Notes: generated from the letters alone by a model not told the origin. Positions 14,037-36,311 are shown, counted from the stretch's first letter. The stretch is DNA of 36,311 bases from Candidatus Woesearchaeota archaeon (GCA_964386445.1 CAYLRC010000001.1:1-36311); one strand, 5' to 3'. Translations and numbers: made by a program.

Positions 14037-14636
14037 TTACATGAAGTCTTTTACCTCATACTTAAAATCTTCATCCTTCTTTATTGCTCCTTTCAGCTTT
14101 AAAAACTCTCTAGCGAGGAGCCAGAAAATCAAAGCTAAGGATTTCCTAGATTTGTTATTACATGGAATTATGAGATCTATATTCGAAGGTGTTGTATTAG
14201 CATCGCAAAGAGCAATAATTGGTATATTAACTTTCAAAGCATCTTGCAAAGCTACCCTATCAATCCATGGATCACATATAAGTATTACTTTAGGTTCCAT
14301 GTAAACCTCTTCGTGACTTGGATTCGTTAAGGTACCTGGCAAATATCTCCCAGTTATCGTCTTTATTCCCGTAACCTCTGAAAATTTCTCTAATGGATTC
14401 TTACAAGTATCCCTCCTACCAACTACTAGGATTTCATTTGGAGAAAATTGAGCTAAAAACTTGGCAGCAATTCTTAACCTCTCATCAATTTTCCTTATGT
14501 CTAAGATGCTTAAACCATCATTTCTTATCCTAAATATGAATTCCTTCATGAATTTTGTCCTATATCTCCCACTTACATGAACTCCCGCAGCTAAATATTT
14601 TTCCCTAGAGATCAAGAGTTCATTTCCCCCTTTCAC
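14037..14636 (-). CDS. rps2: 30S ribosomal protein S2 (uS2)
   Basis: LISREKYLAAGVHVSGRYRTKFMKEFIFRIRNDGLSILDIRKIDERLRIAAKFL matches the archaeal uS2 N-terminus. GTG start at 14636 (start uncertain). The conserved archaeal eno-rps2 neighbourhood supports the call. Confidence 0.85.
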   Translation of the reverse strand: MKGGNELLISREKYLAAGVHVSGRYRTKFMKEFIFRIRNDGLSILDIRKIDERLRIAAKFLAQFSPNEILVVGRRDTCKNPLEKFSEVTGIKTITGRYLPGTLTNPSHEEVYMEPKVILICDPWIDRVALQDALKVNIPIIALCDANTTPSNIDLIIPCNNKSRKSLALIFWLLAREFLKLKGAIKKDEDFKYEVKDFM

Positions 14637-15774
14637 TTTTCATCTCCTCCTCTATTTTCATGAGCCTTTTCAGTTTGAGTACCCTTTCCCTTGTCACCAC
14701 GCTTATCTTGTACATCTCGCATCCAACGGAGAGATCTGCAAATATTTTTTCTGGAGTCTCCAAAGATCTATGAGAGAAAGTTCTCAAGAATTTAAATTTT
14801 TTTGCTTCCTTCATGAACTGCAGAGTTTCTAGGAGGGAATAGCATTGATTTGGCTTTACTATACAAGAATTTACAGCTCCATTTTTCCTAGCGATCCTTA
14901 ACCTCTCAACATTTGTTGAAAGCAAATCATCTCCACAAATCAACACCTTCCCACCAAAGAACTTCCTCAGCTTTGCAAAACTCTCAAAATCCTCTTGTTG
15001 GAATGGATCTTCAACATACTTTAAATCATATTCCTCTATTAAGAACTTCATATATTTGAGTTGACTATCCTTATCTAAGTATCCCCTCCCGTACTTATAC
15101 TTCCCTCTCTCCCAAAAGGAAGAGGCAGCAACATCCAATCCCAAGTTTATCTTAACTCCAAGCTTATAGCTCAGCTTCTGTACAACATTGCAAAGGAGGT
15201 TTAGTACTTCCTCATTACTCAATTTGGTTATTAATCCTCCTTCCAAACCGATCCTGAATGGGTAGCCATGTTTCTTCAAGCTCCTCAAAGCTTCTTTGTA
15301 TACAAGTTTATTCACCTCTACGTTTTTCTTCACACTTAGCCCTTCTGGGAATACGAGGAATTCTTGAAATTCCGGACATTTCCTCAACCCGACAGAGTGC
15401 TTCCCTCCCCCAAAAATCTTCGAAATTATAATTGGAAGCTTCTCCCCAAGTTCGAGCAGTCTCCATGGTTGGACTTTCTTCTCTTTGGCGAGGGCTTTTA
15501 AGATAGCTAGAGAAAGTGGTAAACACTTGGTTTTCTTCTCAATTGAGAAAATATCTTCAACCTTTGAGAATTCTCTCCCTTCAAGTTCCTTCCCAAGTTT
15601 CCTTAACTTCCTAATTTCTTTCTTGAAATCAAATTTATATTCAAATTTACTTTTGCTAGTTCCGGAAGGAACTGATGCTTTAAATTTTCCAACACTTGTA
15701 AAAATTGTAACTTGGATAAATTTCCTACCAATCGAATTTACTCCTTTCTCAACCCTTAACTTGAAGAATTTCAA
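14620..15774 (-). CDS. eno: enolase, short and divergent
   Basis: TTG start 2 nt after the rrp42 stop, with no in-frame ATG nearby. Readable enolase landmarks: SVPSGTSKSKFEY (for SGASTG..EA), GGGKHS, PEFQEFLVFP, GLEGGL, LDVAAS, YVEDPF, CGDDLLSTN, VKPNQ, SHRSLET and YKIS..RERVLKLKRLMKIEEE. 384 aa against a usual length of about 430. Confidence 0.75.
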   Translation of the reverse strand: MKFFKLRVEKGVNSIGRKFIQVTIFTSVGKFKASVPSGTSKSKFEYKFDFKKEIRKLRKLGKELEGREFSKVEDIFSIEKKTKCLPLSLAILKALAKEKKVQPWRLLELGEKLPIIISKIFGGGKHSVGLRKCPEFQEFLVFPEGLSVKKNVEVNKLVYKEALRSLKKHGYPFRIGLEGGLITKLSNEEVLNLLCNVVQKLSYKLGVKINLGLDVAASSFWERGKYKYGRGYLDKDSQLKYMKFLIEEYDLKYVEDPFQQEDFESFAKLRKFFGGKVLICGDDLLSTNVERLRIARKNGAVNSCIVKPNQCYSLLETLQFMKEAKKFKFLRTFSHRSLETPEKIFADLSVGCEMYKISVVTRERVLKLKRLMKIEEEMKSERGK

Positions 15775-15776
15775 TT

Positions 15777-16550
15777 CTACACCTTCTTAAAGAGTTGTCT
15801 AAGTTCTCTACCTTTCCTTATAGCCATTTCGACGCATTTCGAGATTTCATCCTCTCTTAAGCCAGTATTCTTCCCCAGTTTCTGGAGAGCATTTACCTTC
15901 CCACCACTGGTCGTTGTTACACTTAGCCCAACATCCATTGCAACTTCTTCTCTCAAGCAGGGATCAATCAAAAATCTATTCCCAATCTTCGCGAATGTAC
16001 AACAAATTGGGAGTTTCCTTATCGGTAGCTTCTCATTCGTTAGCTCCCCATACACAATTTTCTCATCTTCAACTTTTGGGAACCTTGCATTAAGCAGAGC
16101 CCCCAAAGCTGCTAATGCACTTGCATCTATTAAATTACCATCGTGATTCAAAACATAAATATCAACGTAAATCAACCACACCTTTTCTCCTTCCTTAATA
16201 CATAACTTACTAAGGTCAATCGCATTACTTTCCCTAATACCTCTATCTACTACCCTAGCAACTTCTATTGCCTCCCCACTTGGTGGGCCTGGCTCAAATT
16301 CTGGAGAAGCGATTGGGGCAAATTCCGTATTTACAATAAAAGCACCTTCGTCAGGTCTATCTGGATATGGTTCACCAAATTCCATCTTCACCCCAGCAAT
16401 TACTTTAGTTTCTCCTAAGGAAACGAGGGCAGAGCCGTCAGCATTCTTGGAAACATTGAACTTTATTCTAACAGGTCTATATTGGAAAAATTTCCTACCG
16501 TCGATCCTCATACCCTTATTTATCAAGTCCACAATGTACTTATACGTCAT
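15777..16550 (-). CDS. rrp42: exosome complex subunit Rrp42
   Basis: The ORF track starts at GTG 16559. ATG 16550 lies 5 nt downstream of a perfect GGAGGTGA (16563-16556), so I use it. RIDGRKFFQYRPVRIKFNVSKNADGSALVSLGETKVIAGVK and EFEPGPPSGEAIEVARVVDRGIRES are typical Rrp42. Confidence 0.85.
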   Translation of the reverse strand: MTYKYIVDLINKGMRIDGRKFFQYRPVRIKFNVSKNADGSALVSLGETKVIAGVKMEFGEPYPDRPDEGAFIVNTEFAPIASPEFEPGPPSGEAIEVARVVDRGIRESNAIDLSKLCIKEGEKVWLIYVDIYVLNHDGNLIDASALAALGALLNARFPKVEDEKIVYGELTNEKLPIRKLPICCTFAKIGNRFLIDPCLREEVAMDVGLSVTTTSGGKVNALQKLGKNTGLREDEISKCVEMAIRKGRELRQLFKKV

Positions 16551-17919
16551 TGATCTCACCTCCAGCTATTTTTTCAGCAAGTTCTATGGCTTTTTCATAA
16601 ATCTTCTTATTTAAGAAGCCATTTTGAAACTTCAGATCTAATTTTTCCCTATCTACAATCCTCCTCCCTTCCGAATTTTCAACTACATCTATCTCCAGAT
16701 CAATGTATCTTGAAAATCTTGGGGAAACTTCAATCGGTGTGTTTATTGAGAAATATCTTCCCTTAAGCTTCCCTTCAGCATTATAATACTCGTGAAGGAT
16801 GAACCACCCTCCTTCCCTGAATTTCGTAATAGCAAAATCTCCAGCCTCAGTTCTCAAATTTAGTCCATCATAACTCCCTCTATATCTTATAGTCCTCTTC
16901 AATTTGATCAGATCTTTCGAAAATTCCTCAACCTGCCCCTTTATAGTTATGTTCCTACCATTCAACTTTTTATGAACAACAAAATAGTTTGATCCAACCT
17001 TTGGAAAATTTTTCTCCAAGGTCTTTGAGATACTCTCTTCTAAGACTTTCTGGTCTACTTTCCCTATTAAAGAGTCTGCCATATCCACGAGCTCCATATA
17101 CTCAAATGATTTCAGTTTATGATGTCCTGGAATAGTAGGTAGTACTTGGGCTCTTATTTCATCTAGCTTCCTCTTAGCTTCTGGTCCAAAATCTATGAAA
17201 TACATTACCAACCCTCTCTCTATCTGCCCAGGAGAATCCGATTCCTCAAATTTCCTCCTAATTTCCTCTTCTTTTGCAAATAACCTTTCCATCTCCTTCC
17301 TTAGCTCCTCGTCGCTCTTCCCTTGAGCTAGCGCCTTCCATAGAACACCATATCCCCTCAACTTAGCCTCTTTACTTAAATTCATCAATCTTTCTATTTC
17401 CTTCTCGTCTTTCAAATGCTTACTCACTTTAGTGAAGCCATTTTTTATCAACACAAGGTTATCGCCAAATATCCTAAGTTGAGTTGAAAGGAGATAGAAC
17501 TCCCTAGAGACTCCTTTAGTTTGAACTAGGATCTTCTCACCCTCCCTAAGATAGCCCCAATAGTTCTGTAAAGAAAGTAATCCTTGTTTGCCATTGCCTA
17601 AATCAACGATTATATTCTTACTTCTCTGATCAAACCTCCTTATTTTTCCCCTATAAATAGTCCCTATCTCAATCTTCCTCACGAAAACATCATCAAAACT
17701 TTCTTTTAAGATCTTCACCACTTCTTCACAACCACAGCCATTTATGGTTACACCATTCAAGTCTTCCTTATCGTAGATGAGAATATCCGCACTCTTCCCA
17801 ACTTCGTCAAGATTAAATCTATCGAGAATAGGATCTGATGGATCGGCTATCTCAAAATTCTTATCTCTAAGCAACTTAGTGAGTGCAGTAGCATAAATCC
17901 CTCGGATTTTCACTTTCAT
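16540..17919 (-). CDS. fau-1: FAU-1 / RNase E/G-like RNA-binding protein with C-terminal DUF402-like region
   Basis: 459 aa. The N-terminus MKVKIRGIYATALTKLL, the internal KLDEIRAQVLPTIPGHHKLK and the C-terminal YFSINTPIEVSPRFSRYIDLEIDVV match my memory of Pyrococcus/Thermococcus FAU-1. ATGA overlap with the rrp41 stop. Confidence 0.7.
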   Translation of the reverse strand: MKVKIRGIYATALTKLLRDKNFEIADPSDPILDRFNLDEVGKSADILIYDKEDLNGVTINGCGCEEVVKILKESFDDVFVRKIEIGTIYRGKIRRFDQRSKNIIVDLGNGKQGLLSLQNYWGYLREGEKILVQTKGVSREFYLLSTQLRIFGDNLVLIKNGFTKVSKHLKDEKEIERLMNLSKEAKLRGYGVLWKALAQGKSDEELRKEMERLFAKEEEIRRKFEESDSPGQIERGLVMYFIDFGPEAKRKLDEIRAQVLPTIPGHHKLKSFEYMELVDMADSLIGKVDQKVLEESISKTLEKNFPKVGSNYFVVHKKLNGRNITIKGQVEEFSKDLIKLKRTIRYRGSYDGLNLRTEAGDFAITKFREGGWFILHEYYNAEGKLKGRYFSINTPIEVSPRFSRYIDLEIDVVENSEGRRIVDREKLDLKFQNGFLNKKIYEKAIELAEKIAGGEINDV

Positions 17920-31685: not shown

Positions 31686-32126
31686 TTAGGACTCATTTCT
31701 CAACTTGTGTTCTTGAGTTCTCCTTTGGTCGAAAATATGAATCACCCTATAGCCAAGTTTGGTTAGGTAGTTAGCAATATATTTCCTATGACATTTCCAC
31801 CAAAGCAGTTCCGTACACATTATCGCAGCTTTCTTCCTCCCAATGATTTTAAGCAGTTCTCTAACAGCCTTCGAAAATTCCTCACTCTTGGAGAAAGCAA
31901 GGTATCCTCCCTTTCTAAAACCTCCAAGTCTCGGGAAGTGAACATATTCTATGTTATGTTCTTTAAGTCTCTTCTCCAAGTTTTCTTTATTAAACCAAGG
32001 TACTTTCTTGCTTGTCGGAAATCTCCTAACATCAACTACTAATTGAATTCTAAAAAATTTCAAAATGTTTAAGAACTCCTCGATGCTCCTAGTACTGTGG
32101 CCTATTGTGTAAATCTCTTTCCTCAT
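31686..32126 (-). CDS. DUF488-family protein
   Basis: IYTIGHSTRSIEEFLNILKFFRIQLVVDVRRFPTSKKVPWFNKENLEKRLKEHNIEYVHFPRLGG is the DUF488 signature. The ATG overlaps the lemA TAA (TAATG). Confidence 0.7.
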   Translation of the reverse strand: MRKEIYTIGHSTRSIEEFLNILKFFRIQLVVDVRRFPTSKKVPWFNKENLEKRLKEHNIEYVHFPRLGGFRKGGYLAFSKSEEFSKAVRELLKIIGRKKAAIMCTELLWWKCHRKYIANYLTKLGYRVIHIFDQRRTQEHKLRNES

Positions 32127-32692
32127 TACTCAAATTTTATTTCGACGTCCTTCTTCTCCTCTTCAGCAACTTTGAAAAGCTCCATTGGCTTGAGCTTCAT
32201 GAGCTTGGCCACTATCAAATCTGGTATCGATTGTAATCTTATATTGTAGGAAGTCACGCAATCGTTGTAGAACTCCCTCCTATCAGCTAGCTCATTCTCA
32301 AGTCCAGAAATCCTTTCCTGTAATTGAAGAAAATTCTCATTCGCTCTAAGCTTTGGATAATTTTCAGCAACTGCGAAGAGCTCCTTGATTGCTCTTGATA
32401 TTTCATTAGCAATTTTCGTTTGCTCATCTCGAGTACTTGCTTTCATCCACTGACTCCTGAGTTCTGTGAGCTTTTCGAGAATGCCTCTCTCATATTTCAT
32501 GTAAGCTTTGCAAACCTCAATTAGCTTCCCGAGCTCATCGTGTCTCTGTTTTAGGATTACATCTATGTTAGCCCATGCTCTGTCGATATCCCTCCTGAGT
32601 CTGATGAAATTATTGTAAATTATTACGAAAATTGCGATGAGAGCAATTATAACCAAAGAAACTCCAATTCCAAGCAGTAACCAAATACTCAT
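32126..32692 (-). CDS. lemA: LemA-family membrane protein
   Basis: N-terminal TM, then YNNFIRLRRDIDRAWANIDVILKQRHDELGKLIE ... ENYPKLRANENFLQLQERISGLENELADRREFYNDCVTSYN, the canonical LemA pattern. TATA-like ttttataaag about 26 nt upstream of the ATG. Confidence 0.85.
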   Translation of the reverse strand: MSIWLLLGIGVSLVIIALIAIFVIIYNNFIRLRRDIDRAWANIDVILKQRHDELGKLIEVCKAYMKYERGILEKLTELRSQWMKASTRDEQTKIANEISRAIKELFAVAENYPKLRANENFLQLQERISGLENELADRREFYNDCVTSYNIRLQSIPDLIVAKLMKLKPMELFKVAEEEKKDVEIKFE

Positions 32693-32732
32693 GAGAGAAG
32701 ATAATTTTCAGAACTTTATAAAATTTTCCGGT

Positions 32733-33629
32733 TTAAGGAGAGAAAGAGGAAATTATGAGGTAAATAGAAATGCTCAAGAGGGTAATACCCACTATTAAGA
32801 AAGTTACGGATTCTAATAGAAGCTTTCTAAGGAATTTTCTTTCCTTCTCCGTTGAGATTATAAATGGTCTTCCCTTCCTTTTTTGGATCATCAAATCTTC
32901 ATACCCAAATTTAGCCGTTGCCTCCTCTTTATATGGATTGTCACCAACCCATCCTAGGATATATATGGAAGAGCCCACTGGCAAGCATTCCTCTACAACC
33001 TTGAATTTCTTCCTAAAGAGGAAAGAACCTTGACTTATCCCTAAGCTCTTAAGCAATTCAGAAATTTCTTGAGGAGGAGATGGTGGAATTAAGGAGAAGG
33101 GAGATTGGTAAGAGTAACTTATCGGTAAATTAAATTTAGCTCCCTTCGGATCTACGAGAACAGTACCAGTATTATCCTCAATGTAAAAAGGTCTATAAGA
33201 GGATACTTCCTCAACTTTTTTCCAACCACTACTTTTGCCTGAGCTCTTCCATTCGTATACCTCACACTTATAATATACACATCTCTTTTTGGAAAGTGGT
33301 GCCATTAACTCTTCTTTGAAAGGCACTACCCTACCACTCACCTCGGCTAGGCCAATAGCTAAAGATCTTATCCTTGAAGTCGGTAAGCTCTGAATTACCT
33401 TATACTCTTTAATTTCGTCCAGACCCGCATAGAAAAACAGGAGGCCAAATATCCCTAAGAATATGACAAGAGGTAAACTCTCGATTAAACTTCCAGAATA
33501 TTCTCTCCCAACTTCAGAACTTGCCACCCATGCAAGTAGTACGGCACTTCCAATAAGGCCTGCGATGAAAAAGGTGAGGTCCTTAGTTTGAGTTTTTTCT
33601 TTGAGGTTCAAAACATCAAATATTTTCAT
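32733..33629 (-). CDS. GIDE-domain (MUL1-like) membrane protein
   Basis: Two N-terminal TMs and one C-terminal TM. The central part LAEVSGRVVPFKEELMAPLSKKRCVYYKCEVYEW...YRPFYIEDNTGTVLVDPKGA matches the GIDE pattern that commonly neighbours LemA. Confidence 0.6.
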   Translation of the reverse strand: MKIFDVLNLKEKTQTKDLTFFIAGLIGSAVLLAWVASSEVGREYSGSLIESLPLVIFLGIFGLLFFYAGLDEIKEYKVIQSLPTSRIRSLAIGLAEVSGRVVPFKEELMAPLSKKRCVYYKCEVYEWKSSGKSSGWKKVEEVSSYRPFYIEDNTGTVLVDPKGAKFNLPISYSYQSPFSLIPPSPPQEISELLKSLGISQGSFLFRKKFKVVEECLPVGSSIYILGWVGDNPYKEEATAKFGYEDLMIQKRKGRPFIISTEKERKFLRKLLLESVTFLIVGITLLSISIYLIISSFSP

Positions 33630-33704: not shown

Positions 33705-35114
33705 TCAGTCTTCGAAGGTCGAATTAATATCGTTTCCTACGAACTGTTGAGTTTCGTTTACGAGAGTTTCGTTCACTAGAGTTTCATTTGTTATTGTACT
33801 GTTCGTTAATTCTCTCAACTCTTCTTCTAAAACATCACTAATTTCATAACTCTCGCTACCTGTATCTGCACTTATTGAATTGGTGGAATTCTCATAGCCC
33901 GTGTCCCTTTGTTCTCCCATACTAGAATTCTTGTTGTTGCATGAACCTACTATCTTCAGTAATGCTGTGAGATTTACTAATTGACTTTCCACTGTTTCCC
34001 CATTTACTGTTACCCTAGCAACATTCTCATAAATGCGAGGGAAAAGTTCTAGCTCAGAATCGTTTAAGCTACTCCCAATTAGCGCATACTTCAAGTGAAG
34101 TGTTATATAAAGCTCTCCGGAGCTTAAGATTTCATTTTCCTTCAACTCTAAACTTAAGGTTTTATTATCAAAGGTCCACTCAAATTTTGAAGTGACTTCG
34201 CTACCGTTCAGGTAAACGTGGAGCGGATTACCTGTGTTAGGAGGCCATCTCACAAAATCTCCCGTGTCTTTGATCTCTCCAGAAATCTCATCAACTAGGT
34301 TAAGAGCCGTAGCTTCAGGAAGATTCTTAATCTTGATATTAATATAGAACCCTCCCGGATTCGTCGAAATGATCTCACTTGACTTGTTTTGAATAACCAA
34401 ACTAAAATTAGAAATTTCGTTGAAATCTGTATCCGACCACCATTTAACAATTTCTATTGGGTTTGTCTCTTCCCACTCTGTCGCCTTAAAAGTATTGTTA
34501 GGGCTAATTTCAGAATCCAAGAAGAAAGCACCACCAACTACAGTGCTTTGGAGAAGTAAAGCTGATGAGAAAACTAAGATCAATATGGAGCTTAGTAGAT
34601 TTTTCCTAGATTTTTTCCTTCGCCTTTTTTTCTTTGTCTTGCTTCCTTTCCAATATGTAAGGATGTTCCTTACTTCCCCATAGATTACTATCATTCCGGG
34701 GATCAATACAAGGAAGATGAACCCATATTTGCTCCTAGCGTAATGAACGAAATAGCCAACAAGTGGTATAGTAAAAGAGACTTTCCCTATTATGTCATCT
34801 GGTTTTACAACCCAATGATCTGGATCCTCATTAGCATCACCTTTAGTTATGAGCCCTCCTTCAGTGATATTCACAACTCTATGCGTAACCGGAATATTTC
34901 TGTCTCTGTCCCTAAATGCAATAACATCGTTTACTTCTACTTCCTCAAAATCTGTTGGGCTGACTATTACCAAATCTCCCATATTTATCGTTGGAGACAT
35001 ACTTCCCCCGAGGACGACTAAGAAGCGTTCTGATCCCACCTTTGAGATGAGAACTACAACTAAAGAAAAGATCAATATGCTCACAAACACAACTTCACTT
35101 TTCTTTATTTTCAC
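33705..35114 (-). CDS. archaeal/ER-type (S26B, SipW/Sec11-like) signal peptidase fused to a second signal peptide and a sequon-rich extracellular domain
   Basis: GTG start 35114, with an in-frame TAA immediately upstream. Peptidase motifs GGSMSPT, PVTHRVV and KGDANEDPD lie between two TMs. These are followed by KTKKKRRRKKSRK, a third TM, GGAFFLDSEISPNNTFKA and a C-terminal module of about 260 residues with 14 N-x-S/T sequons. Confidence 0.75.
   Translation of the reverse strand: MKIKKSEVVFVSILIFSLVVVLISKVGSERFLVVLGGSMSPTINMGDLVIVSPTDFEEVEVNDVIAFRDRDRNIPVTHRVVNITEGGLITKGDANEDPDHWVVKPDDIIGKVSFTIPLVGYFVHYARSKYGFIFLVLIPGMIVIYGEVRNILTYWKGSKTKKKRRRKKSRKNLLSSILILVFSSALLLQSTVVGGAFFLDSEISPNNTFKATEWEETNPIEIVKWWSDTDFNEISNFSLVIQNKSSEIISTNPGGFYINIKIKNLPEATALNLVDEISGEIKDTGDFVRWPPNTGNPLHVYLNGSEVTSKFEWTFDNKTLSLELKENEILSSGELYITLHLKYALIGSSLNDSELELFPRIYENVARVTVNGETVESQLVNLTALLKIVGSCNNKNSSMGEQRDTGYENSTNSISADTGSESYEISDVLEEELRELTNSTITNETLVNETLVNETQQFVGNDINSTFED
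33749..33793 (-). repeat. 3 x 15-nt imperfect tandem repeat encoding NETLV-NETLV-NETQ
   Basis: Plus-strand units are gagtttcgtttacga / gagtttcgttcacta / gagtttcatttgtta. Each encodes an N-glycosylation sequon near the C-terminus of the peptidase fusion. Confidence 0.8.
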
Positions 35115-35152
35115 TTATATCATCATTTCTTAGTTCCTTCATTCTTCAATTC

Positions 35153-35168
35153 AAAAAATAATAAAAAA
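35153..35168 (-). terminator. oligo-T tract (TTTTTTATTATTTTTT on the minus strand), possible archaeal terminator after the TasA-like gene
   Basis: It lies 43-58 nt downstream of the TasA-like stop and upstream of the peptidase start. Archaeal RNA polymerase terminates at oligo-T runs. I saw no convincing hairpin. Confidence 0.35.
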
Positions 35169-35210
35169 CGAAAGGATTCTTGGGAGTTTTTAGTCTATTT
35201 AGTTCAATTC

Positions 35211-35942
35211 CTATTGCCAAGGACTTGGATTGTTTTTACTTTGTACTACTTCCATGATTATACTACCAACTAGGGAATCGGATTGGATGATGTTTCCAGC
35301 ATCTGTTGGTACTCTCCATTCAACACCCAAGTAGTAAGTTGTGGAAGCTTGCAATTCCACAGGAAGTTCTATCCCACCATCATCGATTATGTCGCTCAAG
35401 GACTTGTTAGCAACAATTGGTTCCTCAATACCATTTAATATGTTATCTCCTTCCTCTCGATCTGCCTCACAGCTTCCCTCTCCTCCTGTACACTGCCATC
35501 CTTCATAACTTCCCTCATCCATCCAAACCGTAAAGAGCAGGTAGTCTATTAGTTCTCCTTCTCCAGTTCCTGGAGAGCCACAGGTTGTATCTACCTCGCT
35601 CTCTGGCTCGGTGCAATTGTTCTCGTAATTAACGACATCGAACCTCAACCTTCCCCACGCATTGTTACCGTAGACATGCCAACTGATGGTTGCTTCTCCC
35701 CAGTCACCTGGTTTTATATCACACTCCCAAAAGAAGACTCCTCCATTATCACCCAAGTCCCTTAGAGTCCAACCACAACCTGGTGCTGGACACTCGAAAT
35801 CGATCTTCAAATCGATACTTCCCGCTGTAAATGTATTACCAGTACTAGTCTCAGTATCGCTAAAAAAGGCAAAGGTTGCTCCACTAACTAGAGCAACTAC
35901 TATGCCAGTCACTATTAGGGAAATTAAAATCTCTGATCTCAT
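35211..35942 (-). CDS. TasA/camelysin-class secreted protein with SipW-cognate-type signal peptide
   Basis: MRSEILISLIVTGIVVALVSGATFAFFSDTETSTGNTFTAGSIDLKI follows the h-region + G.TFA.FSD.E.S..N.F.AG..D consensus of SipW substrates. The C-terminal QSDSLVGSIIMEVVQ resembles the TasA-family ending. The protein is acidic with seven Cys. Confidence 0.7.
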   Translation of the reverse strand: MRSEILISLIVTGIVVALVSGATFAFFSDTETSTGNTFTAGSIDLKIDFECPAPGCGWTLRDLGDNGGVFFWECDIKPGDWGEATISWHVYGNNAWGRLRFDVVNYENNCTEPESEVDTTCGSPGTGEGELIDYLLFTVWMDEGSYEGWQCTGGEGSCEADREEGDNILNGIEEPIVANKSLSDIIDDGGIELPVELQASTTYYLGVEWRVPTDAGNIIQSDSLVGSIIMEVVQSKNNPSPWQ

Positions 35943-35966
35943 CCTTGTCCACCCCTCTCAGATCGC

Positions 35967-36311
35967 TTACTCTGCAAGTTGAGAGCACAGAAAGTTCGGG
36001 TTGTTTCTTTCTTGTACTGCGTAAAATTCGATATCCCCAGTCAAACTATCTGTTTGAGCTTCGTTACCAACTGATGAACCATCGCAAGTTATTTCTCCAG
36101 TTTCTTGGTTTATGTTCATGGTACCAAAACACCAAACTTTACCAATGTAATAAGTAGTACTTCCAAAAAGTGGGTCTTCGTCAGCTCCTCCTACATTGTT
36201 CTCTTGGGAATCAGCAAGCGTATAAATCCTTCCATCTAGAATTTCACTCGCATATCCTTCCATTAATGGTATGTCACACTCTGGCTGATAGACGTTGTCT
36301 CCTGGACATGC
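35967..36311 (-). CDS. second TasA-like paralogue, C-terminal part (5' end beyond the right edge)
   Basis: The frame stays open upstream of the ORF-track Met to base 36311 (ACPGDNVYQPECDIPLMEGY...). It shares STTYYIGKVW / STTYYLGVEW and QTDSLTGDIEFYAVQERNNP / QSDSLVGSIIMEVVQSKNNP with the 243-aa neighbour. Confidence 0.6.
   Translation of the reverse strand, partial: ACPGDNVYQPECDIPLMEGYASEILDGRIYTLADSQENNVGGADEDPLFGSTTYYIGKVWCFGTMNINQETGEITCDGSSVGNEAQTDSLTGDIEFYAVQERNNPNFLCSQLAE

What the first reader, a model, noticed from the sequence alone, without database searches (positions are those of the whole stretch)
33705..36311. TasA/SipW-type surface-fibre locus in an archaeon: two Cys-rich TasA-like paralogues plus a dedicated peptidase
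Three consecutive minus-strand genes look like a secretion and assembly cassette. The first is a partial TasA-like paralogue (35967-36311) and the second a complete 243-aa TasA-like protein with a textbook SipW-cognate signal peptide. The third is the SipW-like peptidase fusion. The two paralogues share STTYY(L/I)G and Q(S/T)DSL.G.I....VQ..NNP blocks. Both are acidic and Cys-rich (7 Cys in 243 aa, and 5 in the visible 114 aa), which suggests disulfide-stabilised extracellular subunits. TasA forms donor-strand-exchanged biofilm fibres in Bacillus, and TasA-like subunits build archaeal bundling pili in Pyrobaculum. A euryarchaeal version with multiple paralogues and a fused peptidase would be a distinct architecture. 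An oligo-T tract between the 243-aa gene and the peptidase suggests the subunit gene is expressed in excess.
Basis: partly seen in the sequence, partly recalled or inferred. Interest (0 to 1): 0.7.

Follow-up and report, generated by a model that had tools for sequence, protein, structure and literature searches.

The report
TasA-like fibre cassette, DPANN archaeon
A small symbiotic-type (DPANN) archaeon carries an ordinary-looking "TasA plus dedicated signal peptidase" surface-fibre gene set whose nearest relatives sit in ultra-small CPR bacteria, with one unusual twist: the peptidase is fused to a protein that carries the peptidase's own cleavage and donor-strand motif.

Summary
Three co-directional minus-strand genes are present:
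- the 3' part of a TasA-like paralogue (35967-36311)
- a complete 243-aa TasA-like protein (35211-35942)
- a 469-aa signal-peptidase fusion (33705-35114)

The 243-aa protein passes the SipW-cognate signal model. It aligns full-length with genuine TasA/CalY proteins (hhalign 97.4%), and its best PDB fold match is the TasA fibre. Similarity of the core alone is weak. The peptidase domain is an intact archaeal/SipW-type SPase I.

- The host is a DPANN archaeon (Nanoarchaeota/Aenigmarchaeota labels), not a euryarchaeon.
- "Several TasA-like paralogues plus an SPase" is a very common cassette in CPR/Patescibacteria. The window's subunits nest among CPR sequences at 58-63% identity.
- Dedicated SPases with an extra outside domain are already described (TafD).

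One thing appears unreported. After a third membrane helix, the fusion carries a conserved second copy of the cleavage/donor-strand motif (GGA|FFLDSE...). A confident Ig-like beta-sandwich follows it. In related loci the same pair occurs either fused or as adjacent genes. I read this part as a TapA-like initiator or tip released by its own peptidase.

Fibre assembly and self-cleavage are inferred, not shown.

The parts
35967..36311 (-). C-terminal 114 aa of the upstream TasA-like paralogue; the gene runs off the window end. It is 266 aa in sister contig L088.
   Evidence: ORF. Hit to the family HMM E 9.9e-13. BLASTP to the 243-aa protein E 3e-07. The full-length L088 version carries the SipW-cognate signal, TIGR04088 44.5 bits.
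35943..35966 (-). 24-nt spacer between the two subunit genes, with a GAGGGGTGG ribosome-binding-like element. Co-transcription of the two subunit genes is inferred.
   Evidence: Read from the sequence. The same short spacer with GAGGTG is present in L088 and L081.
35211..35942 (-). Complete 243-aa TasA-like subunit precursor: acidic (pI 4.05), 7 Cys.
   Evidence: TIGR04088 37.2 bits; PF12389 33.4 bits, covering residues 8-48 only. 1305 homologues. hhalign against the TasA/CalY family 97.4%, E 9.5e-12, 208 columns. AF2 beta-sandwich model with pLDDT 75.6. Top PDB fold hit is 8aur_A, the TasA fibre, E 3.1e-05.
35868..35942 (-). Signal peptide of the 243-aa subunit (residues 1-25). Predicted SPase cleavage is T23-F-A25 | F26.
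   Evidence: Hydrophobic segment 5-23. A25 is invariant and T23 nearly invariant. It aligns with TasA T25-W-A27|A28; mature TasA in PDB 8AUR starts at A28.
35799..35867 (-). Predicted mature N-terminus and donor strand (residues 26-48, FFSDTETSTGNTFTAGSIDLKID).
   Evidence: This is the most conserved block of the family. Residues 18-43 are below pLDDT 50 in the monomer model. The equivalent TasA segment is the donor strand (PMC10151520, PMC9674648). Aromatic at +2 and acidic at +4, as in AbpX and TasA.
35153..35168 (-). Double oligo-T tract (T6-A-TT-A-T6) between the subunit gene and the peptidase gene. It is a candidate archaeal terminator or attenuator, or alternatively a TATA-like promoter element.
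   Evidence: Sequence. A tract at the same position is conserved in the divergent locus L081/L083. Its function was not tested.
33705..35114 (-). 469-aa fusion ORF: signal peptidase I domain, internal signal-peptide-like segment, and secreted Ig-like domain.
   Evidence: ORF. 24 fusion homologues aligned. The fused architecture recurs in archaeal and CPR loci.
34659..35114 (-). SipW/archaeal-type signal peptidase I domain (residues 1-152), with TM1 at 8-26 and TM2 at 130-148. Catalytic motifs GSM (S38), THR (H78) and GDAN (D93) are intact.
   Evidence: TIGR02228 116.1 bits (cut-off 51.85). Bacillus SipW equivalog 105.7 bits (cut-off 190, not reached). Motifs and TM segments. The catalytic residues are invariant or nearly so.
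34527..34643 (-). Lys/Arg-rich loop (residues 158-171) plus TM3 (177-195), ending G194-G-A196. This is an internal signal-peptide-like n/h/c region.
   Evidence: The topology follows from the positive-inside rule (inference). The -1 residue is small (A or S) in all 13 distinct motif-bearing fusions found by the scan. In the 24-sequence alignment A2 it is Leu in 5 sequences and Thr in 1.
34473..34526 (-). Internal SipW-cognate/donor-strand-like motif FFLDSEISPNNTFKATEW (residues 197-214).
   Evidence: F198, D200 and E202 are invariant in 24 homologues, consensus AYFSDxExxxGxFxAW. In homologue P0123 the same site scores 19.0 bits on TIGR04088, exactly the cut-off. Below pLDDT 50 in the model. 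There is no background occurrence of the motif.
33939..34469 (-). Ig-like beta-sandwich domain (about residues 216-392), predicted extracellular and rich in N-glycosylation sequons.
   Evidence: AF2 pLDDT above 90 over this span. Foldseek hits are TTHA1873, PrgB Ig-like domains, AgI/II C-domains and Gram-positive pilins, E about 1e-06. Only 31 relatives among 1.84 billion representatives, nearly all placed behind an SPase domain. 8 NxS/T sequons.
33708..33938 (-). Acidic, disordered, sequon-rich tail (residues 393-469) with NETLV repeats and no membrane anchor.
   Evidence: pLDDT below 40. 24.6% D+E and 6 sequons. No TM segment.

Best explanation
The locus is a TasA-superfamily surface-fibre cassette in a DPANN archaeon.

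1. The two subunit genes (266 aa and 243 aa) are probably co-transcribed. A conserved oligo-T tract then separates them from the peptidase gene, which would keep the peptidase at lower abundance (inferred).
2. The subunits are exported by Sec. Their signal peptides are removed after T-x-A25 by the SipW-like SPase I domain encoded next door (inferred by homology).
3. This exposes the strongly conserved N-terminus FFSDTETSTGNTFTAGSIDL.
4. The mature proteins are acidic beta-sandwiches, probably stabilised by three disulfides. By analogy with TasA, AbpA, AbpX and Tafi, they polymerise outside the cell by inserting that N-terminal strand into the next subunit (donor-strand exchange), possibly helped by Ca2+ (inferred).
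5. The peptidase gene is a polyprotein. Its parts run in this order:
   - a two-TM SPase domain
   - a Lys/Arg-rich cytoplasmic loop and a third TM helix that mimic a signal peptide
   - a second copy of the cleavage/donor-strand motif (GGA196|FFLDSE...)
   - a complete Ig-like domain with a glycosylated acidic tail
6. I propose that the SPase cuts its own C-terminal half free, in cis or in trans. This would yield a TapA-like minor subunit that donates its strand to a major subunit, to start, cap or tip the fibre, in 1:1 stoichiometry with the enzyme.

Shown here: gene content, motifs, family membership of the signal and of the peptidase, fold class, conservation of the fusion, and the link to CPR bacteria. 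Inferred: cleavage sites, polymerisation, self-processing, disulfides, regulation and biological role (attachment or matrix).
For: - Signal and peptidase. TIGR04088 scores 37.2 bits (cut-off 19). TIGR02228 scores 116.1 bits (cut-off 51.85). Catalytic S38/H78/D93 motifs are intact.
- TasA homology. hhalign of the family profile against 40 named TasA/CalY proteins gives 97.4%, E 9.5e-12, over 208 columns. It aligns DIKPGD with NLKPGD and QtDSl..i..EVvQ with QGDSi..F..EAtQ.
- Fold. The best PDB fold match of the AF2 model is the TasA fibre 8aur_A (E 3.1e-05). Other donor-strand pilins (CfaB, CS17, CanA) also appear in the list.
- Donor strand. The predicted donor strand is disordered in the monomer model, as reported for AbpX. 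The cleavage register matches mature TasA A28.
- Cysteines. The pairs 51/56, 110/121 (58 and 57 of 61 sequences) and 151/158 co-occur across homologues.
- Cassette conservation. A paralogue + subunit + fusion arrangement is conserved in L081, L086 and L088.
- Internal motif. It is invariant at F198/D200/E202 in 24 fusions. A small -1 residue is kept in 13 of 13 distinct fusions.
- Split versus fused genes. At least 11 standalone SPases in related loci are directly followed or overlapped by a motif-bearing 300-770 aa ORF.
- C-terminal domain. It is a complete Ig-like sandwich with pLDDT above 90, the same logic as TapA, which has an N-terminal donor segment plus a complete Ig fold (PMC10151520).
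- Precedent for processing. TafD genetics show that a dedicated SPase processes a TasA-superfamily pilin in archaea (PMC11821415).
- Expression in a cultured relative. Going by gene order, the TasA-like gene next to sipW is among the five most expressed secreted genes of unknown function in a cultured patescibacterium that parasitises archaea.
Against: - With the signal and donor-strand region removed, profile-profile similarity to TasA drops to probability 5% (P 0.0075), though in the same register.
- A profile search of PDB sequences found nothing.
- Pfam PF12389 matches residues 8-48 only.
- Foldseek TM-scores to TasA are 0.38-0.40, below the usual 0.5.
- The Bacillus TasA and SipW equivalog models are far below cut-off (13.6 versus 450; 105.7 versus 190).
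- No multimer prediction could be run, so donor-strand complementation is untested.
- Five fusion homologues have Leu and one has Thr at the putative -1 position. That argues against cleavage at that exact bond in those proteins.
- TapA is not among the top 50 fold matches of the C-terminal domain.
- The T-rich tract could equally be a TATA-like promoter element.
- There is no expression, proteomic or imaging data for this organism.
Confidence: 0.62

Rival explanations
1. The fusion is not cleaved. TM3 would be a permanent membrane anchor. The donor-strand-like motif, held at the membrane surface, would plug the groove of the cell-proximal subunit. The peptidase fusion would then serve as the membrane anchor of the fibre, or its C-terminal domain would be a substrate-docking or accessory module as proposed for TafD and DUF5305 proteins.
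For: Five of 24 fusion homologues have Leu and one has Thr at the putative -1 position. TafD has an extra outside domain of unknown function, and DUF5305 accessory proteins are sometimes fused to SPase I. The window protein has no other membrane anchor, so keeping TM3 would give a way to hold the fibre on the cell.
Against: The -1 residue is small in the window protein and in 13 of 13 distinct fusions found in the loci. The same partner exists as a separate gene with an ordinary N-terminal signal peptide in at least 11 loci. The n/h/c organisation of residues 158-196 is that of a cleavable signal peptide. Pfam finds no DUF5305 in the C-terminal part. Haloarchaeal SPase extensions lack the motif.
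Confidence: 0.2
2. The TasA-like proteins are secreted but do not polymerise. They would act as monomeric surface or matrix proteins such as adhesins or Ca2+-binding proteins. The conserved N-terminus would then serve only as a recognition element for the dedicated peptidase.
For: Core similarity to TasA is weak. TM-scores are 0.38-0.40. Many family members in CPR carry large inserted or appended domains typical of adhesins. No assembly test was possible.
Against: Conservation extends about 20 residues beyond the cleavage site, further than SPase recognition needs. That segment is unstructured in the monomer model, as in proven donor-strand polymers. All experimentally studied members of the superfamily (TasA, AbpA, AbpX, CanA, threads, Tafi) form filaments.
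Confidence: 0.13
3. The 243-aa protein is a camelysin-type (MEROPS M73) secreted metalloprotease, as some database names say.
For: It hits PF12389 Peptidase_M73, and NCBI names a 63%-identical homologue 'M73 family metallopeptidase'.
Against: The Pfam match covers only the signal and N-terminal region. There is no HExxH or other zinc-binding motif and only one invariant His (H89), against many invariant Asp/Glu. TasA itself is regarded as a non-proteolytic relative of camelysin (PMC9245690).
Confidence: 0.05

Closest known systems
Bacillus subtilis tapA-sipW-tasA operon (TasA fibres; PDB 8AUR, 5OF1)
   Same: - An N-terminal signal with T-x-A|aromatic-F-x-D and a conserved donor-strand block.
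- A beta-sandwich subunit.
- A dedicated ER/archaeal-type SPase I encoded in the same cassette.
- A minor partner carrying the same motif plus a complete Ig-like fold (TapA).
- A major subunit expected in excess over the peptidase and the partner.
   Different: - The subunits are only remotely related in the core (hhalign 97.4% full length but 5% without the N-terminus).
- They are Cys-rich and very acidic.
- There are two paralogous subunits.
- The gene order is reversed.
- The TapA-like partner is fused behind the peptidase and is not detectably homologous to TapA.
- The host is an archaeon.
CPR/Patescibacteria TasA-like cassettes (TIGR04088-type proteins plus a roughly 180-aa SPase; for example Ca. 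Microsyncoccus archaeolyticus PMX.50_00002-00005)
   Same: - The same subfamily, with 58-63% identity to the window's 243-aa subunit.
- The same conserved Cys pairs.
- One to five paralogues followed by the SPase and then a motif-bearing large protein.
- Fused SPase-motif versions also occur (L018, L032, L049, L054 and others).
   Different: - These hosts are bacteria.
- The SPase is mostly standalone.
- The window's particular Ig-like C-terminal domain was found only in a small archaeal group (31 representatives in 1.84 billion proteins).
Archaeal TasA-superfamily filaments: AbpA bundling pili (Pyrobaculum), AbpX (Pyrodictium), Tafi (Haloarcula), Saci_0406 threads, CanA cannulae
   Same: - Secreted beta-sandwich subunits that polymerise by donor-strand complementation.
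- A dedicated SPase I is often in the locus; TafD is genetically required.
- Like AbpX: pI about 4, about 15-18% Asp/Glu, aromatic at +2 and acidic at +4 of the mature protein.
   Different: - At sequence level the window proteins are closer to bacterial TasA/CPR proteins than to these.
- The SPase has 3 TM segments, against 10 for AbpX-type and 4 for TafD.
- Export is by Sec, not Tat.
- There is no DUF5305 accessory gene.
- No structure or filament has been observed for this subfamily.

Membership tests
TasA/CalY family (Pfam PF12389 Peptidase_M73; TasA superfamily) | SipW-cognate N-terminal signal with the conserved A|(F/Y)F(S/N)D.E....N.F.AG..DL block (TIGR04088) | tested here: met
   37.2 bits against a cut-off of 19 for the 243-aa protein. 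44.5 bits for the full upstream paralogue in L088. The block is invariant or nearly so in 61 homologues.
TasA/CalY family (Pfam PF12389 Peptidase_M73; TasA superfamily) | Family HMM match above the gathering threshold over the mature domain | tested here: inconclusive
   PF12389 scores 33.4 bits (cut-off 22.5) but covers only residues 8-48, profile positions 9-48 of 196. A profile search against PDB sequences gave no hit.
TasA/CalY family (Pfam PF12389 Peptidase_M73; TasA superfamily) | Profile-profile homology to bona fide TasA/CalY proteins | tested here: met
   hhalign A1 against A4 (40 named TasA/CalY proteins): 97.4%, E 9.5e-12, 208 columns from the signal to the last strand. Caveat: with the N-terminal 47 residues removed, probability is 5% and P 0.0075, in the same register.
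TasA/CalY family (Pfam PF12389 Peptidase_M73; TasA superfamily) | Jelly-roll/beta-sandwich fold resembling TasA | tested here: inconclusive
   The AF2 model (pLDDT 75.6) is a beta-sandwich. The TasA fibre 8aur_A is the top PDB hit (E 3.1e-05, probability 1.00), but TM-scores are 0.38 and 0.40.
TasA/CalY family (Pfam PF12389 Peptidase_M73; TasA superfamily) | Orthology to B. subtilis TasA (NCBIfam equivalog NF046066) | tested here: not met
   13.6 bits against a cut-off of 450. It is a superfamily member, not a TasA orthologue.
TasA/CalY family (Pfam PF12389 Peptidase_M73; TasA superfamily) | Assembly into fibres by donor-strand exchange | not testable with these tools
   No multimer prediction was available and model coordinates cannot be inspected. 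The only indirect support is a disordered, highly conserved N-terminal strand.
SipW / archaeal-type signal peptidase I | SPase I family model plus Ser/His(/Asp) catalytic residues | tested here: met
   TIGR02228 sigpep_I_arch scores 116.1 bits (cut-off 51.85). GSM (S38), THR (H78) and GDAN (D93) are conserved.
SipW / archaeal-type signal peptidase I | Bacillus SipW equivalog (NF046067) | tested here: not met
   105.7 bits against a cut-off of 190. It is SipW-like, not a SipW orthologue.
AbpX-like calcium-responsive clade of the TasA superfamily | pI about 4, about 15% Asp/Glu, aromatic at +2 and acidic at +4 of the mature donor strand | tested here: met
   pI 4.05 and 18.3% D+E in the mature protein. 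The predicted mature N-terminus is F-F-S-D, compared with the description.
AbpX-like calcium-responsive clade of the TasA superfamily | Associated SPase I with ten TM helices; sequence clustering with AbpX | tested here: not met
   The SPase here has 3 hydrophobic segments. Similarity to the AbpX sequence was not tested because no sequence was at hand. No AbpX entry appeared in the fold-search list.
TapA-like initiator (for residues 197-469 of the fusion) | SipW-type signal, N-terminal donor segment and a complete Ig-like fold | tested here: met
   Internal n/h/c segment and motif. Confident complete beta-sandwich with a disordered N-terminal motif. The TapA description comes from PMC10151520.
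TapA-like initiator (for residues 197-469 of the fusion) | Homology to TapA | tested here: not met
   No Pfam or NCBIfam hit. TapA is not among the top 50 Foldseek hits. The resemblance is functional analogy only.
SPase I accessory module DUF5305 (PF17231) / TafD-type extended SPase | DUF5305 domain, or a TafD-like second outside domain | tested here: not met
   No PF17231 hit at E up to 10. Haloarchaeal extended SPases P0163 and P0164 lack the internal motif. TafD itself could not be compared. The general idea of a dedicated SPase with an extra extracellular domain is shared.

The most novel reading that the evidence does not exclude
The peptidase gene encodes a self-processing polyprotein in which a signal peptidase is translationally fused to one of its own substrates. 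The enzyme would cut after an internal signal-peptide-like helix. That would release, one-for-one, a donor-strand-bearing Ig-domain protein that primes or tips a TasA-like fibre. The same cassette, in fused and split forms, has moved between CPR bacteria and DPANN archaea. That would make it a shared attachment organelle of the two ultra-small episymbiont radiations.
Probability: 0.3. Interest if true: 0.65.

Novelty: new variant of a known kind. Interest (0 to 1): 0.45.

Why it matters
DPANN archaea and CPR bacteria live attached to other cells, yet how they attach is largely unknown. This cassette is very common in CPR (329 confirmed loci among GTDB species representatives). It is highly expressed in one cultured archaeon-parasitising patescibacterium. 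Here it appears in a DPANN archaeon with 58-63% identical subunits.

If the proteins form donor-strand-exchanged fibres, they are a candidate attachment or matrix structure shared across the two domains by gene transfer. The peptidase-substrate fusion, if self-cleaving, would be a compact way to couple processing enzyme and fibre initiator. It would also be a simple system for studying SipW-type specificity.

If none of this holds, the locus is still a correctly identified but ordinary member of the TasA superfamily.

Tried and rejected
- **PDB sequence search.** A search with the family profile returned nothing, even at E up to 10.
- **hhalign against a single TasA sequence.** It aligned only the signal and donor region, at 87%. 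A 40-sequence TasA/CalY profile was needed.
- **hhalign without the N-terminus.** Not significant: probability 5%.
- **Family scans of the fusion's C-terminal part.** Pfam and NCBIfam gave no hit. DUF5305 and TapA identity were therefore rejected.
- **PF27237 (AF_1625_C).** It is flagged in longer homologues. It is absent from my Pfam copy, and it is not recorded for the close 466-aa homologues, so it probably lies in their extra C-terminal regions. This was not resolved.
- **Extending the window.** The 7.4-kb contig L086 was also truncated, showing 178 aa of the paralogue. The 17.4-kb contig L088 solved it.
- **Downstream partner of the closest CPR relative.** It could not be seen, because all copies of that contig end about 0.7 kb after the gene.
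- **Metalloprotease reading.** Rejected: no zinc motif, and the Pfam match is N-terminal only.
- **JGI name.** 'Ribosomally synthesized peptide with SipW-like signal' was rejected as a legacy name unsuited to a 218-aa folded domain.
- **Class III (type IV pilin) signal.** Rejected, because the conserved motif follows the hydrophobic segment rather than preceding it.
- **Bacterial promoter/terminator scanner.** Not used, because it does not model archaeal signals.

Full report
**1. Observation**

The three minus-strand ORFs are as described:
- 35967-36311, 114 aa visible, open at the window end
- 35211-35942, 243 aa
- 33705-35114, 469 aa, GTG start

The two subunit genes are 24 nt apart, with a GAGGGGTGG element before the ATG. 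The 243-aa gene and the peptidase gene are 96 nt apart, and the double oligo-T tract sits at 35153-35168. The paralogues share their C-terminal block (BLASTP E 3e-07).

Cys counts (7 and 5), acidity (about 17% D+E, pI 4.05) and Cys enrichment (2.9% and 4.4% against 1.17% background) were all confirmed.

A sister contig about 92-93% identical at protein level (L088, 17.4 kb) supplies the missing part. There the upstream paralogue is 266 aa and begins MNTRILTSLVIIGLVSIVLGMGTYA|YFSDTETSTGNTFTAGSIDLKID. It scores 44.5 bits on TIGR04088. In L088 an 86-aa ArsR-type HTH gene precedes the cassette.

**2. Host**

The window encodes aIF-2, aIF-2 gamma, archaeal GluRS, archaeosine tRNA-guanine transglycosylase and Pelota, so it is archaeal. 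Its aIF-2 and GluRS fall in 90%-identity clusters with proteins named 'Nanoarchaeota archaeon' and 'Candidatus Aenigmarchaeota archaeon'. The 92%-identical peptidase P0122 is also named Nanoarchaeota. The host is therefore a DPANN archaeon, not a euryarchaeon.

**3. The subunits**

- The 243-aa protein passes TIGR04088 (37.2 bits against 19) and formally passes PF12389. The Pfam match covers only residues 8-48.
- It has 1305 homologues at E up to 1e-3.
- In an alignment of 61 of them, the invariant or near-invariant positions fall in three groups: the block A25-D48, a DIKPGD element, and the last strand Q220-Q234.
- A profile of this family finds nothing in PDB by sequence.
- Against a profile of 40 named TasA/CalY proteins it gives 97.4% probability, E 9.5e-12, over 208 columns. 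I first confirmed my recalled B. subtilis TasA query as identical to PDB 8AUR over residues 28-261.
- Most of that signal comes from the N-terminus. Without it, the same register is recovered but at probability 5% and P 0.0075.
- The AF2 model (pLDDT 75.6) is a beta-sandwich. Residues 18-43, which hold the predicted donor strand, are unstructured.
- Its best PDB fold match is the TasA fibre (E 3.1e-05, TM 0.38/0.40). Other donor-strand pilins appear lower in the list.
- The cleavage register T-F-A25|F-F-S-D matches TasA T-W-A27|A-F-N-D.
- Aromatic at +2, acidic at +4, pI about 4 and high Asp/Glu content also match the description of the Ca2+-dependent AbpX clade.
- Cys pairs 51/56, 110/121 and 151/158 co-occur across homologues. 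That fits three disulfides, but geometry could not be checked.

**4. The peptidase fusion**

Residues 1-152 form an archaeal/SipW-type SPase I (TIGR02228, 116 bits) with intact GSM, THR and GDAN motifs and two TM helices.

A Lys/Arg-rich loop (158-171) and a third hydrophobic helix (177-195) follow. That helix ends G-G-A196. Next comes FFLDSEISPNNTFKATEW.

In 24 fusion homologues this site reads AYFSDxExxxGxFxAW, with F198, D200 and E202 invariant. In P0123 the site reaches the TIGR04088 cut-off. The motif has no background occurrence outside cassettes in 537,000 residues.

The segment therefore has the organisation of a signal peptide plus a TasA-type mature N-terminus, embedded inside the peptidase ORF.

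Residues about 216-392 fold as a confident Ig-like beta-sandwich (pLDDT above 90). The motif itself and the acidic, sequon-rich tail are disordered. The closest folds are TTHA1873, PrgB and AgI/II Ig-like domains, and Gram-positive pilins. TasA, TapA and DUF5305 are not among them.

The domain is rare. Only 31 representatives were found among 1.84 billion proteins, nearly all about 190 residues into an SPase fusion.

**5. Context in other genomes**

A GTDB scan confirmed 329 loci. The 80 fetched are overwhelmingly CPR/Patescibacteria, plus a few Aenigmatarchaeota, one Hadarchaeota and one unclassified archaeon.

An HMM scan of all loci gave these results:
- The standard cassette is one to five TasA-like paralogues followed by a standalone SPase of about 180 aa.
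- 17 of 77 SPase ORFs (13 distinct) carry the internal motif behind an extra helix. They occur in both CPR and archaeal loci, always with Ala or Ser at -1.
- At least 11 standalone SPases are directly followed or overlapped by a 300-770 aa ORF whose N-terminus carries the motif.

The same pair being fused in some genomes and adjacent in others argues that the C-terminal half is a substrate-type protein in its own right.

In a neighbour-joining tree of 155 family ORFs, the window's 243-aa group nests inside a CPR clade. Its nearest non-self neighbours are L001 and L084, at 63% identity; L084 carries a bacterial-type TIM. The 266-aa paralogue's nearest neighbours are also CPR. Other DPANN sequences are more distant. 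This suggests cross-domain exchange. The caveats are that the tree is neighbour-joining, midpoint-rooted and relies on MAG labels.

The archaeal contig L081 (116 kb, with proteasome, RNase P and L15e genes) keeps the order paralogue, 243-aa subunit, fusion. It also keeps an oligo-T tract at the same intergenic position, although the rest of the spacer is unrelated.

**6. Literature**

- PF12389 proteins are already reported as widespread in archaea and in Patescibacteria, with a patchy distribution suggesting transfer (PMC9245690).
- The TasA superfamily now includes TasA, AbpA, AbpX, CanA, threads and Tafi. All are donor-strand polymers and often have an SPase I in the locus. DUF5305 accessory proteins are sometimes fused to SPase I (bioRxiv 10.64898/2026.01.04.697558).
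- TafD, the Tafi peptidase, is genetically required for pilin processing. It has a C-terminal outside domain of unknown function (PMC11821415).
- TapA donates its N-terminus to TasA to start filaments. It has a complete Ig fold and is made at low levels with SipW (PMC10151520).
- In Ca. Microsyncoccus archaeolyticus PMX.50, gene order in L012 identifies PMX.50_00003 as the TasA-like gene next to sipW (PMX.50_00004). That gene is listed among the five most highly expressed secreted genes of unknown function (PMC10936435).
- I found no paper describing the motif-bearing SPase fusion or the cassette in DPANN. The searches were limited.

**7. Interpretation**

The best-supported reading is a TasA-superfamily fibre cassette with a dedicated peptidase. 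The likely steps are Sec export, cleavage after A25, and polymerisation of acidic, disulfide-stabilised subunits through the conserved N-terminal strand. The peptidase fusion would release, or alternatively anchor, a TapA-like Ig-domain partner that carries the same strand.

Family assignment of the signal and the peptidase, the fold class, and the conservation of the fusion are shown. Cleavage, assembly, self-processing, regulation by the T-tract and a role in attachment are inferred.

The rivals are an uncleaved anchor or accessory domain, non-polymerising secreted proteins, and a camelysin-type protease. They are listed separately with their tests.

**8. Verdict**

The finding is real and correctly classified in outline, but less unusual than proposed. 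It is a DPANN member of a cassette that is commonplace in CPR bacteria and belongs to a well-studied superfamily. Two features go beyond what I found described:
- the conserved peptidase-substrate fusion with an internal cleavage/donor-strand motif
- the close CPR-DPANN relationship of the subunits

Novelty: new variant of a known kind. Interest: 0.45.

Noticed in passing
window 31686-33629 (-): Directly downstream of the cassette lie a GIDE-domain membrane protein (32733-33629, PF12483, E 8e-14), a LemA protein (32126-32692, E 1.4e-48) and a DUF488 protein (31686-32126). This trio keeps its place in the close relatives L086-L088 but is absent from the divergent cassette locus L081. It is probably a separate LemA/GIDE module, not part of the fibre system.
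   Followed up: partly
L088 7825-8085 (+), sister contig of the window: An 86-aa ArsR/HTH_20-type regulator sits about 250 nt upstream of the 266-aa paralogue. L081 has a different upstream neighbourhood. It is a possible local regulator; the corresponding region lies beyond the window end.
   Followed up: no
L012 1992-6654 (Ca. Microsyncoccus archaeolyticus PMX.50): By gene order, PMX.50_00003 is the TasA-like gene next to sipW (PMX.50_00004). The source paper reports PMX.50_00003 as a 'galactose-binding domain fold' and lists it among the five most expressed secreted genes of unknown function in this patescibacterium, which parasitises methanogens. The paper did not link it to TasA.
   Followed up: partly
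L009, L019, L028, L072, L077 (CPR loci): CPR cassettes hold up to five TasA-like paralogues of 250-900 aa. Large insertions sit between the conserved N-terminal block and the C-terminal strands, which suggests a modular family of fibre subunits or adhesins.
   Followed up: no
cluster members of the 243-aa protein: A 90%-cluster member, HDN73755.1, is labelled 'Archaeoglobus sp.', while the housekeeping genes of the same population are labelled Nanoarchaeota or Aenigmarchaeota. This is probably a binning error, and it could mislead taxonomic surveys of TasA-like proteins.
   Followed up: no
homologues P0123 and P0128 of the fusion (alignment A2, columns about 1000-1026): These two fusion homologues end in a short hydrophobic segment followed by a Lys-rich tail (for example ...VSFISIGFLSKRKNELLK), i.e. 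a possible C-terminal membrane anchor. The window protein lacks this. The released domain may therefore be cell-anchored in some lineages and free in others.
   Followed up: no
window 14620-15774 (-) and 16540-17919 (-): The enolase-like ORF scores below the family cut-off and aligns only from profile position 109 (206 bits against 300). A 459-aa ORF has only a weak RNase E/G-type match. These may be divergent or shortened housekeeping genes typical of reduced genomes, or the start codons may be mis-set.
   Followed up: no
P0148 and P0149: Two metagenomic proteins share 57% identity with about 30% of the fusion but carry unrelated Pfam domains (4Fe-4S ferredoxin; DUF11). They may be assembly chimeras or further domain shuffling of the peptidase or the Ig-like module.
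   Followed up: no
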